Origin: Escherichia coli
Lineage (GTDB): Bacteria; Pseudomonadota; Gammaproteobacteria; Enterobacterales; Enterobacteriaceae
Length of the DNA stretch: 64,000 nt
Assembly: GCF_045037415.1 (NCBI RefSeq)
Contig: NZ_CP173438.1
Strand: one strand, 5' to 3'
Position numbers: made by a program. This document shows positions 44,001 to 47,000 of the stretch, piece by piece. The first letter of the stretch is position 1. Every line of letters begins with the position of its first letter.

Positions 44001-47000
44001 ACGGTGCCGACACCAGTTGGGGTGAGAAAACCACCAAGTCCAGCTCCGCCACAGCGAATTTGCTCGATTAGCGTACCTTGCGGCACCAGAACGACGTCCA
44101 TCTCACCAGATATCATGCGCCGACCTGTTTCCGGGTTGGTGCCGATATGTGAAGCAATCACTTTGCGGACTCGACCATTGACGATGAGCGGACCGATGCC
44201 GGTATCAACAAACGCGGTATCATTGGCTATCAATGTCAGGTCGCGAACACCAGATTCCAGTAATGCTTCAACCAGGCGGGATGGAGTGCCAATCCCCATA
44301 AATCCGCCCACCATGATGGTCATGCCGTCACGAAAGAAGCCGGTGGCGTCTTGTAATGTCATCAATTTTGTTTTCATTTTTTATCCCTCTTGCATACACC
44401 GTTGTGGGTACAGTCAGGGAATAGCAAGGGGAGTGCCAGAATGAGATTATTGAATGTTGTTATTTAACTAATTGAATAGAAAAGGATAAATTAGATGGGG
44501 GTTCATAAGGAGAATGAGCGGCTATGCAGAAAATTGCGCACTGTGCAAATTTCTGCATAGCAAGTTTTGGCATTATACATCCGCCGGATCGATACCGTAT
44601 TCCTGGAGTTTATACATCAATGCACGGCGACTGATGCCCAGCATTAAAGCAGTGCGGGTTCGGTTTCCTTCTTGTTGTTCCAGCACTTCCATAATGATGC
44701 GTTTTTCGACGCGTTTAATTTCCTCTTTTAAATTACGCTCACCGACAGGGGCTGTTTTTGCTTCACCAGCATTACAGACTGGCTGACGAATCTGCGGCGG
44801 AAGATCCTCAGAAAAAATGATCGGGCCTGAATTCATCACGACGGCGCGTTCAATAACGTTGGAAAGCTCTCGAATATTTCCCGGCCATGACCAGGCGGTA
44901 AGCAGTGACATTGCCATCGGATCGATGTCGATAATATCGCGCTGATTCTCACTACTGAATTTTTGCAAAAAGTGATTAGCTAACAGGGAAATATCTTCCC
45001 GGCGATCGCGCAGAGGCGGCAGTATTAAATGAATAACGTTAAGGCGATAAAAGAGATCTTCACGGAAGGTGCCTTCTTTCACCATTGCCTGCAAGTCGCG
45101 GTTGGTGGCAGCAATGACGCGGATATCAACTTTTATGGTCTGATGGCCGCCAATCCGTTCAAATTCCCGTTCCTGCAGAATGCGTAGTAATTTGGCTTGC
45201 AGTACCAGCGGCATTTCGCCAATTTCGTCGAGGAGCAGAGTACCTTCGTTGGCACGTTCAAATAATCCCTGACGCAAGGTTTGTGCACCAGTAAATGCAC
45301 CTTTTTCATGACCAAACAGTTCACTTTCGAGCAACGATTCCGGCAGTGCCGCGCAGTTGACTTTAATGAACGGCCCCTTTGCCCGCCGCGAATTGTAGTG
45401 AATCGCTCTGGCAATCAACTCTTTCCCGGTGCCGCTTTCACCGCTAATCAAGACGCTGGCCTGAGAAAGGGCAATTTTGGCGGTGTCTTTGCAGATGTCC
45501 ATCATCGCCGGGCTGTTGGTGAGAATGTGCCCCCATTGCCAGCTGGTGCTCAGTGCCTGGTGCAGATGACGGATCTCTTTTTTCATTGACTGGAGTTGTA
45601 AAGCGCGCTGAACGATTAAATTCAACTCATCGAGATCAAACGGTTTGATAACATAGTCGAAGGCTCCGCAGCGTAGTGCTTCGACGGCGGTTTCCACTTC
45701 AGCATAGGCCGTCATCAGAATAACGGGTGTCCGGGTCTCATGGCTGCGCATCTCCTTTAGTGCCTTGATGCCGTCCATCTCTGGCATGCGGATATCCATC
45801 AACACCACGTCAGGGTGAATATCGGCAAACAGGTGTAATGCTGTGCGCCCGTTGTTCGCACAATGTGTTTCGAATCCTTGTAGTGCAAAAGCGGTGCTCA
45901 GCATACGGCGAACATTATCTTCATCATCCACAATAAGGATGCGATTAATAGCAGTCATACAGTCTGATTTCCCTGCGGGTTGATCGGTAAAATAAGCGTG
46001 AAGGTTGCGCCGTAGCCCGGCAAACTGGCGACGCGAATATCACCCTGATGGGCATTAATGATGCGTTGACTTAACGCCAGACCAAGCCCGGTTCCTGAGG
46101 CTTTGGTAGTGAAAAAGGGATCGAAGATCTTTTTTTGCAGCGAGAGATCAATGCCACTGCCGTTGTCCTCTATCGAAATGGCCTGTTGCGAGTCGCTATA
46201 CTGCCAGGTTCGAATGCGAATTTTCCCTCGTGCACTGATAGCCTGGACGGCATTGATCAGGATATTCAGTAGTACCTGTTTGAGCAGTTCACGATCGGCG
46301 TTAATCGGGCTTAATTCATTATCCAGTTCGCTTATGAAGTCGACCCGCGCTTGTACGCCGGCGGTTTGTACCAGTACCAGAGTTTCTTCAACCAATGCAT
46401 TGAGGCTGACTTGTTGCCATTGACTGTGGCGTGGGCGTGAAAATTCGAGCAATTGCTGAATAACTTTGTTAATTGAATCGATTTCTTTGAGTACTACGGA
46501 CAGATATTCCTGATGTATTGGGTCACGGGTTTGTTGGCGCAAGATCTGTACATAACCACGAATAGCCGTTAGCGGATTACGTACTTCATGCGCCACGCCA
46601 GCCATCAGCTCACCCAGTGTGGCGAGGCGTTCTGCTTGCGCCATGCGGCGCTGGGTTTCTTTGCGGGCAGTTAAATCAGAGAAAATCACCAAAGCACCTA
46701 TCATTTCACCGTGCGTGTTATGAATACGACTGGTCGTGACACTGAGTTCAATGGTGCGGTCACGGCCTGGAAAACTGATCTCCAGTGCAACATGTTCGGT
46801 GCCATGTTCCAGCGTATCCAGTACGGGACTGTAGAACTGAGTATTGTCGAACAACATGGAGTAAGGCTGCCCTACCAGTTCATGACGTTGATAGCCAGTG
46901 ATGACTTCTGCTGCTGGGTTCATGGTGGTTACATCACCCTGGCGGTCAATGGCAATGACGCCATCGGCAGCGTTTTCAATAATCAGATCGTTAAGTGTTC

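What the first reader, a model, noticed from the sequence alone, without database searches (positions are those of the whole stretch)
44423..44561. Textbook sigma-54 promoter plus upstream 20-bp palindromic enhancer for atoDAEB
A -24/-12 element (TGGCAC-N5-TTGCT) lies about 45 nt upstream of atoD, and a 41-bp near-perfect palindrome lies about 100 bp further upstream, just after the atoC stop. This is the expected geometry for an NtrC-type activator (AtoC) and so serves as an internal check on the annotation.
Basis: partly seen in the sequence, partly recalled or inferred. Interest (0 to 1): 0.25.

Follow-up and report, generated by a model that had tools for sequence, protein, structure and literature searches.

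The report
Known AtoC enhancer and sigma-54 promoter

Summary
All features lie on the minus strand. TGGCAC-TCCCC-TTGCT sits at 44438..44423, 45 nt before the atoD ATG (44377). It is the only exact match to the sigma-54 consensus in the window. A 20+1+20 nt palindrome (18/20 complementary) sits at 44561..44521, 11 nt after the atoC stop. It is unique in the window, and none of 100 random sequences reached 18/20.

Both arms match the published AtoC binding sites letter for letter (PMC3118216). The -24/-12 element is the published atoD sigma-54 site, supported by ChIP-seq (PMC4591121), gSELEX (PMC8743547) and a sigma-54 promoter table (PMC2831329).

The palindrome is 76% invariant and TGGCA/TTGC are invariant, while the spacers are 7-8% invariant. 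Spacing is held to within 3 bp. Two arm positions show symmetric double substitutions. All 12 differences from K-12 fall outside the three elements.

AtoC carries REC, an AAA+ domain with GAFTGA, and HTH_8. An IHF-like site lies between enhancer and promoter.

Verdict: already known, interpretation supported, low interest. The mapped transcription start (Matta 2007) could not be read here.

The parts
44573..45958 (-). atoC: NtrC-type response regulator and bacterial enhancer-binding protein (REC, AAA+ sigma-54 interaction domain, HTH_8). It carries D55, Walker A GESGTGK at residue 173, GAFTGA at 220 and LLLDE at 241.
   Evidence: RefSeq annotation
45955..47793 (-). atoS: sensor histidine kinase (PAS, HisKA, HATPase_c). 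The ORF overlaps atoC by 4 nt. The annotated start in SK1144 is a few codons inside the longest ORF.
44521..44561 (.). AtoC upstream activating sequence (enhancer), a 20+1+20 nt palindrome. On the ato sense strand it reads GCTATGCAGAAATTTGCACA G TGCGCAATTTTCTGCATAGC. It contains four [T/C]GCA motifs at positions 5, 15, 24 and 34.
   Evidence: unique, beyond chance; identical to published AtoC sites; 76% invariant in 7 genomes, symmetric double substitutions; 41/41 identical to K-12
44465..44477 (-). IHF-like core ATTCAATTAGTTA (1 mismatch to WATCAANNNNTTR), inside a 75-85% A+T tract at 44438-44497 between enhancer and promoter.
   Evidence: It is conserved in position (39-41 bp before the GG of -24) and largely in sequence in 7 genomes. 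It is weak on its own, because such matches occur about 0.95 times per kb.
44423..44438 (-). Sigma-54 (RpoN) promoter: the -24 element TGGCAC, a 5-nt spacer, and the -12 element TTGCT.
   Evidence: literature; TGGCA and TTGC are invariant in 7 genomes while the N5 varies
44412..44415 (-). Expected transcription start. Position 44412 follows the rule '19 bp downstream of the motif centre' in PMC4591121. Positions 44414-44415 follow from my recollection of the Matta 2007 coordinates.
44378..44411 (-). atoD leader with Shine-Dalgarno GAGGG (44389-44385). With the preceding few bases it carries ACUGUACCCACA (44414-44403), which is complementary to Spot 42 nt 1-12.
   Evidence: (64% invariant from -12 to the ATG); atoD is cited as a Spot 42 target in PMC7618054
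40531..44377 (-). atoDAEB operon: atoD 43715-44377, atoA 43065-43715, atoE 41746-43068, atoB 40531-41715.

Best explanation
This is the regulatory region of the E. coli atoDAEB operon.

Proposed mechanism:
1. Acetoacetate activates the kinase AtoS, which phosphorylates AtoC at D55.
2. AtoC~P binds through its C-terminal HTH_8 domains to the 41-bp palindrome centred about 127-130 bp upstream of the transcription start. It assembles there into the active AAA+ oligomer.
3. Sigma-54 RNA polymerase sits as a closed complex on TGGCAC-N5-TTGCT.
4. The A/T-rich spacer, with its IHF-like site about 57 bp upstream of the start, bends so that the enhancer-bound AtoC touches sigma-54 through its GAFTGA loop.
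5. ATP hydrolysis drives open-complex formation and transcription of atoDAEB from about 35-38 nt before the atoD ATG.

Shown by sequence and computation here:
- the elements exist, they are beyond chance, and they are identical to the published sites;
- sequence, dyad symmetry and spacing are selectively conserved;
- AtoC has the required domains and motifs;
- no sigma-70-like promoter is found in the spacer.

Shown by others and read here:
- AtoC binds both arms in vivo;
- sigma-54 binds the site in vivo and in vitro.

Inferred or recalled:
- the role of IHF, the exact start site and the looping geometry;
- the stoichiometry, which I propose to be two AtoC dimers, one per arm.
For: Exact sigma-54 consensus.
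- It is unique in the window and correctly oriented, 45 nt before atoD.

Palindrome.
- It is unique in the window, and 0 of 100 random sequences match its quality.
- Both arms are identical to the verified AtoC sites at the same offsets from the ATG.

Sigma-54 binding.
- ChIP-seq peak OS21, with the 'confirmed' flag.
- gSELEX RpoN peak in the spacer.
- Listing as a known sigma-54 promoter.

AtoC.
- It carries REC, Sigma54_activat and HTH_8, and matches the AtoC equivalog.
- D55, Walker A, GAFTGA and Walker B are present.

Footprint over 7 genomes.
- Invariant fractions: palindrome 0.76; TGGCA and TTGC invariant; spacers 0.07 and 0.08.
- Distances are held: 11 nt from stop to palindrome, 104-107 bp from centre to GG, 39-41 bp from the IHF-like core to GG.
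- Symmetric double substitutions occur at arm positions 9/33 and 12/30.

Other points.
- All 12 differences from K-12 in the 195-nt spacer avoid the 70 nt of the three elements.
- No sigma-70-like promoter is found in the spacer.
- Two distant atoSC-like loci (57% AtoC identity) also carry TGGCAT-N5-TTGCT 111-147 nt after the regulator gene, ahead of CoA-transferase or SCFA-transporter genes. One also has a TGCGCA-type palindrome directly after the stop.
Against: - Nothing contradicts the reading.
- The primary paper with the DNase I footprint, the mapped start, the promoter mutants and the IHF result (Matta et al. 2007, J Bacteriol 189:6324) is not held. Those points rest on secondary citation and on my memory.
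- The IHF-like core has one mismatch, and such matches occur at about 0.95 per kb, so it is not significant alone.
- The covariation statistics rest on only 6 distinct sequences. In the shuffle control, 8 of 500 shuffles reach the observed covariation score and 46 of 500 reach the observed two pairs with a change on both sides; neither count is a probability.
- One arm position (18/24, A against C) is never complementary in any genome, so the symmetry is imperfect by design or by descent.
Confidence: 0.96

Rival explanations
1. The palindrome acts, instead or in addition, as an RNA hairpin at the 3' end of the atoSC transcript, serving as a terminator or as a barrier against 3' exonucleases. 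It lies only 11 nt after the atoC stop.
For: - As RNA it folds into a hairpin of -24.3 kcal/mol (z = -4.05, 1 of 200 shuffles as good).
- Its position directly after the stop is fixed at 11 nt in 7 genomes.
- Symmetry-preserving double substitutions would equally preserve a hairpin.
Against: - No U-run follows the stem, and the terminator scan finds nothing on the minus strand. The downstream bases are not T-rich in any of the 7 genomes.
- The sequence itself is far more conserved than base pairing alone would need: 31 of 41 positions are invariant, and so is the one A/C mismatch.
- Published ChIP shows AtoC binding to both arms.
- As a sole function this is essentially excluded. As a secondary role it is untested.
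Confidence: 0.1
2. The -24/-12 match is a chance or inert sigma-54 site, like many sigma-54 binding sites in E. coli, and atoDAEB is transcribed from another promoter.
For: - An exact consensus match somewhere in 64 kb occurs in 14 of 100 shuffles.
- Many sigma-54 sites found by ChIP-seq lie inside genes, and their function, if any, is largely unknown.
Against: - It is intergenic, correctly oriented and 45 nt before atoD.
- It lies next to a gene for a sigma-54 activator and downstream of that activator's verified binding site.
- TGGCA and TTGC are invariant in 7 genomes while the spacer varies.
- It is flagged as experimentally confirmed.
- No sigma-70-like promoter is found in the spacer.
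Confidence: 0.01
3. The palindrome is a copy of a dispersed repeat (REP/BIME-like) rather than a specific operator.
For: Two naRNA4 (Rfam RF02564) copies just past rcsC and a G+C-rich hairpin at 20608-20650 lie elsewhere in the window. I take them to be REP-type from memory; that identity was not tested here.
Against: - It occurs once in the window.
- The 401-nt region has a median of one place per E. coli genome.
- No Rfam family matches it.
- Its A/T-rich arms are unlike the G+C-rich hairpin at 20608-20650.
Confidence: 0.01

Closest known systems
The atoDAEB promoter of E. coli K-12 (AtoC inverted repeat plus sigma-54 promoter; Matta et al. 2007, cited in PMC3118216)
   Same: It is the same locus. 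The palindrome (41/41), the IHF-like core (13/13) and the -24/-12 element (16/16) are identical to K-12 MG1655. Both arm sequences and their offsets from the ATG equal the published sites.
   Different: There are 12 single-base differences in the 195-nt spacer, all outside the three elements. One lies 4 nt downstream of the -12 element: C in the window at 44419, G in K-12. The six other genomes in the alignment share the window's C.
glnAp2 with its NtrC enhancer (paradigm of NtrC-type activation; from general knowledge)
   Same: - A response-regulator bEBP with REC, AAA+ and HTH_8 domains.
- Dyad-symmetric TGCA-containing sites more than 100 bp upstream of a GG-N10-GC promoter.
- Activation at a distance by looping.
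   Different: - Here the two 20-bp units are directly abutted and mutually inverted, forming one 41-bp palindrome, rather than two separate 17-bp dyads.
- An IHF-like site lies in the spacer. From memory, glnAp2 works without IHF.
IHF-assisted sigma-54 promoters such as nifH, Pu and glnHp2 (from general knowledge)
   Same: An A/T-rich spacer with an IHF-like core lies roughly midway between enhancer and promoter. Its spacing is conserved to within 2-3 bp.
   Different: IHF binding at this site was not tested here, and the core has one mismatch to the consensus.

Membership tests
Sigma-54 (-24/-12) promoter | GG and GC dinucleotides exactly 10 bp apart within TGGCAC-N5-TTGCW, oriented towards the gene | tested here: met
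   16/16 match at 44438..44423 on the ato strand, 45 nt before the atoD ATG
Sigma-54 (-24/-12) promoter | Occupancy by sigma-54 or RpoN holoenzyme | not testable with these tools
   Literature on the identical K-12 sequence: ChIP-seq peak OS21 and a gSELEX peak. Identity to K-12 is shown.
Sigma-54 (-24/-12) promoter | Transcription start about 11-13 nt downstream of the GC, and dependent on rpoN | not testable with these tools
   Predicted at 44412 by the rule in PMC4591121. The mapped start is in Matta 2007, which is not held.
Sigma-54 (-24/-12) promoter | A cognate enhancer-binding protein with an AAA+ domain and GAFTGA loop | tested here: met
   AtoC is encoded immediately upstream. It has Sigma54_activat (E = 1.8e-75), GAFTGA at residue 220 and Walker A at 173.
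Sigma-54 (-24/-12) promoter | Conservation of the -24 and -12 elements in orthologous loci | tested here: met
   TGGCA and TTGC are invariant in the window plus 6 other genomes, while the N5 varies. Two distant atoSC-like loci have TGGCAT-N5-TTGCT.
bEBP upstream activating sequence (AtoC operator) | Dyad-symmetric site roughly 80-150 bp upstream of the -24 element | tested here: met
   41-bp palindrome, 18/20 complementary, with its centre 104 bp before the GG
bEBP upstream activating sequence (AtoC operator) | Sequence identity to the experimentally defined AtoC binding site | tested here: met
   Both 20-mers are identical to Table 5 of PMC3118216, at the same offsets from the ATG
bEBP upstream activating sequence (AtoC operator) | Selective conservation of sequence and symmetry relative to the flanks | tested here: met
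   0.76 invariant against 0.07-0.08 in the spacers. Symmetric double changes occur at 2 of 20 positions.
bEBP upstream activating sequence (AtoC operator) | Direct binding of AtoC (footprint, ChIP) | not testable with these tools
   Reported in PMC3118216, citing Matta 2007
IHF binding site | Match to WATCAANNNNTTR within an A/T-rich context, between enhancer and promoter | tested here: inconclusive
   ATTCAATTAGTTA has 1 mismatch. The background rate is 0.95 per kb. Its position is conserved in 7 genomes. IHF dependence is recalled from the Matta 2007 abstract only.
Intrinsic (Rho-independent) terminator | G+C-rich stem-loop followed by a U-run | tested here: not met
   The hairpin is stable, but no T-run follows it and there is no hit on the minus strand

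The most novel reading that the evidence does not exclude
Three small additions are not excluded by the evidence.

(a) Each 20-bp arm may itself be a dimer site.
- The 41-mer carries four [T/C]GCA motifs at positions 5, 15, 24 and 34, about one helical turn apart.
- The distant atoSC-like loci show the same four-motif layout of TGCGCA-like hexamers.
- The enhancer would then seat two AtoC dimers on one face of the DNA, as NtrC does at glnAp2.

(b) The whole cassette (atoS, atoC, palindrome, sigma-54 promoter, then CoA-transferase or SCFA-transporter genes) may be ancient and shared with Nitrospiraceae and Deltaproteobacteria MAGs.

(c) The strongly conserved extreme 5' end of the atoD leader may be the Spot 42 pairing site, tying catabolite repression to the first dozen nucleotides of the mRNA.
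Probability: 0.4. Interest if true: 0.15.

Novelty: already known. Interest (0 to 1): 0.05.

Why it matters
It matters only as a control. It confirms that the window is an E. coli chromosome segment with an intact, correctly annotated atoSC-atoDAEB locus. The phylogenetic footprint made here is a clean teaching example of three conserved islands with fixed spacing in an otherwise free-drifting spacer, and it gives modest independent support to the published model. No open question is touched.

Tried and rejected
- Reading the primary paper (Matta et al. 2007) by PubMed id and by PMC id failed because it is not held. A phrase search for its coordinates found nothing.
- Beisel et al. 2012 (Spot 42 targets) is not held either.
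- Searches for papers giving the IHF site or the mapped start yielded nothing usable.
- The terminator reading was rejected as a sole function, because no U-run follows the hairpin.
- The dispersed-repeat reading was rejected, because the element is single-copy.
- The chance reading was rejected on position, orientation, conservation and published binding.
- A full-length Spot 42 / leader duplex calculation was uninformative: 380 of 500 shuffles did as well. Only the restriction to Spot 42 nt 1-16 gave a signal.
- The more distant hits from the genome scan (L010-L080) are other NtrC-family regulators or receiver domains and were not used. Of those checked, L013, L018, L020, L021 and L023 show no such promoter after the gene.

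Full report
**1. What is in the sequence**

The ato genes lie on the minus strand. The order is atoS (47793-45955), atoC (45958-44573), a 195-nt spacer (44572-44378), atoD (44377-43715), atoA, atoE and atoB.

Read on the ato strand, the spacer contains the following:
- 11 nt after the atoC stop, the palindrome GCTATGCAGAAATTTGCACA-G-TGCGCAATTTTCTGCATAGC (44561..44521). It has two 20-nt arms that are 18/20 complementary.
- A tract of 75-85% A+T (44497-44438) containing ATTCAATTAGTTA (44477..44465). This has one mismatch to the IHF core WATCAANNNNTTR.
- TGGCAC-TCCCC-TTGCT (44438..44423).
- A 45-nt stretch with a GAGGG Shine-Dalgarno, followed by the atoD ATG.

**2. Is it more than chance?**

- The sigma-54 consensus has one exact match in the window, which is this one. 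Shuffles give a mean of 0.14 per 64 kb on both strands. For this spacer and this orientation, that works out to about 2e-4 by my arithmetic.
- With one mismatch allowed, the count is at chance level (3 against 3.27). Only the exact match carries weight.
- The palindrome is the only one with 20-nt arms scoring 18/20 or better in the window. None of 100 Markov-1 random sequences reached 18/20.
- The IHF-like core is not significant alone, since one-mismatch matches occur about 0.95 times per kb.

**3. Identity of the locus**

- The 401 nt around the spacer are 100% identical to E. coli SK1144. They occur in 3924 of 5426 complete E. coli genomes, nearly always once per genome.
- RefSeq annotates rcsC, atoS, atoC, atoD, atoA, atoE, atoB and yfaP there.
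- Pfam and NCBIfam agree. AtoC scores 1002.7 bits on the AtoC equivalog (cut-off 714) and carries Response_reg, Sigma54_activat, AAA_lid_14 and HTH_8.
- AtoS, the two CoA-transferase subunits, the SCFA transporter and the thiolase are as expected.
- AtoC has D55, Walker A GESGTGK, GAFTGA at residue 220 and LLLDE. All parts needed to activate sigma-54 are present.

**4. Comparison with published experiments**

- PMC3118216 states that the AtoC site was experimentally verified as two inverted 20-bp sites upstream of atoDAEB.
- Its Table 5 lists GCTATGCAGAAATTTGCACA (-184..-165 from the atoD start) and GCTATGCAGAAAATTGCGCA (-163..-144, opposite strand) as bound in vivo.
- Both sequences and offsets equal the two arms found here.
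- PMC2831329 lists attcTGGCACTCCCCTTGCTATtgcc as the known atoD sigma-54 promoter.
- PMC4591121 reports sigma-54 ChIP-seq peak OS21 on CTGGCACTCCCCTTGCT. It flags the peak as experimentally confirmed in EcoCyc and predicts a start 35 nt before atoD, which is window 44412.
- PMC8743547 finds an RpoN holoenzyme gSELEX peak in the atoC>atoD spacer.
- Aligned with K-12 MG1655, the window differs at 12 of the 195 spacer positions. None of these lie in the palindrome, the IHF-like core or the -24/-12 element. The K-12 experiments therefore apply here.
- The primary paper (Matta et al. 2007) is not held.
- From memory, its abstract places the palindrome at -146 to -107 and reports sigma-54 and IHF dependence.
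- Those coordinates would put +1 at 44415/44414, within 3 nt of the predicted 44412.

**5. New evidence: phylogenetic footprint**

A scan of one genome per species with AtoC gave:
- one divergent Escherichia locus (L002, 90% AtoC identity);
- five Citrobacter loci (L003-L007, 83-86%);
- two distant loci (L008 from a Nitrospiraceae MAG and L009 from a Deltaproteobacteria MAG, 57%).

In the alignment of the seven enterobacterial spacers, the invariant fractions are:

| Segment | Invariant fraction |
|---|---|
| Palindrome | 0.76 |
| First spacer | 0.07 |
| IHF-like core | 0.46 |
| Second spacer | 0.08 |
| -24/-12 element (TGGCA and TTGC invariant, N5 free) | 0.69 |
| -12 to ATG | 0.64 |

Distances are held:
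- stop to palindrome: 11 nt in all seven;
- palindrome centre to GG: 104-107 bp;
- IHF-like core to GG: 39-41 bp;
- whole spacer: 195-198 nt.

Within the palindrome, positions 9/33 (G-C to A-T) and 12/30 (A-T to T-A) change on both arms together. Position 18/24 is an invariant A/C asymmetry. With only six distinct sequences this is supportive, not conclusive.

The distant loci keep the architecture:
- Each has an AtoS-like kinase and an AtoC-like regulator.
- Each has TGGCAT-N5-TTGCT 111 or 147 nt after the regulator's stop.
- The downstream genes are CoA-transferase A/B (L008) or an AtoE-like transporter (L009).
- L009 has a palindrome GCAAATTTTTGCGCA-GG-TGCGCAAGAATTAGC starting 4 nt after the stop.

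**6. How it most likely works**

This is standard NtrC-type activation:
1. AtoS~P phosphorylates AtoC.
2. AtoC binds the enhancer and oligomerises.
3. The A/T-rich, IHF-like spacer bends the DNA.
4. The GAFTGA loop engages sigma-54 in the closed complex at -24/-12.
5. ATP hydrolysis opens the promoter.

No sigma-70-like promoter is found in the spacer, which fits an operon that is silent without the activator.

One inference of my own concerns stoichiometry. The 41-mer carries four [T/C]GCA motifs at positions 5, 15, 24 and 34, and the distant loci show four TGCGCA-like hexamers in the same layout. Each arm may therefore be a dimer site, giving two dimers on one face of the DNA, as with NtrC at glnAp2.

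**7. Rivals**

- **Hairpin at the atoSC 3' end.** The palindrome folds well as RNA (-24.3 kcal/mol, z = -4.05). No U-run follows it and the scan finds no terminator. Its primary sequence is conserved far beyond what pairing needs. A secondary role as a 3' hairpin is not excluded.
- **Chance or inert sigma-54 site.** Rejected on position, orientation, conservation and published binding.
- **Dispersed repeat.** Rejected because the element is single-copy.

**8. Verdict**

The feature is already known in detail, so interest is low.

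Noticed in passing
window 44403-44414 (minus strand), within the atoD leader 44378-44415: The stretch from the -12 element to the ATG is 64% invariant across 7 genomes, far more than the spacers. Its 5' end, ACUGUACCCACA, is complementary to Spot 42 nt 1-12 (GUAGGGUACAGA): -15.7 kcal/mol, with 1 of 500 shuffles as good. GUACCC is invariant in all 7 genomes. atoD is cited as a Spot 42 target in PMC7618054, but the primary paper is not held, so the published pairing site could not be compared.
   Followed up: partly
window 44419 (minus strand), 4 nt downstream of the -12 element: The window has C (TTGCTATTCCC) where K-12 MG1655 has G (TTGCTATTGCC). The divergent Escherichia and all five Citrobacter genomes share the window's C, so the laboratory strain appears to carry the derived allele next to the -12 element.
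   Followed up: partly
window 44300-44700, compared with the E. coli collection: The atoC-atoD junction is found in only 3924 of 5426 complete E. coli genomes, so about 28% lack it. At least one genome (hit H12) matches only the first 70 nt of the query (the end of atoC and the first bases of the spacer), which suggests a deletion endpoint there.
   Followed up: no
L008 3881-4120 and L009 3872-4070: Two uncultured bacteria from other phyla or classes (a Nitrospiraceae MAG and a Deltaproteobacteria MAG) have atoS-like and atoC-like genes (57% AtoC identity). These are followed by TGCGCA-type repeats and a TGGCAT-N5-TTGCT promoter ahead of CoA-transferase or SCFA-transporter genes. The enhancer-promoter cassette therefore travels with the regulator well beyond the Enterobacteriaceae.
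   Followed up: partly
window 20608-20650: This is the second-best palindrome in the window (16/20, loop 3): a G+C-rich hairpin CCCGTCCCCTCTCCC-GCAA-GGGGAGAGGGGACGG. It lies between two same-strand ORFs of 761 and 376 aa. By size these look like nrdA and nrdB, but their identity was not checked.
   Followed up: no
window 50797-50873 and 50911-50987 (+); 54648-54741 (-): Rfam hits above gathering score: two tandem naRNA4 copies beginning at the last base of the rcsC ORF, and the MicF sRNA gene. From memory, both fit the known rcsC / ompC-micF neighbourhood.
   Followed up: no
window 6867-6882 (+) and 21259-21274 (+): Two one-mismatch matches to the sigma-54 consensus (TGGCACGTTGATTGTT and GGGCACGCGCCTTGCT). 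Their number is what chance predicts (3 seen including atoD, 3.27 expected), so they are probably meaningless.
   Followed up: no
window 45955-45958, 43715, 43065-43068 (minus strand): Adjacent ato genes overlap: atoS/atoC by 4 nt, atoD/atoA by 1 nt and atoA/atoE by 4 nt. This is the usual sign of translational coupling.
   Followed up: no
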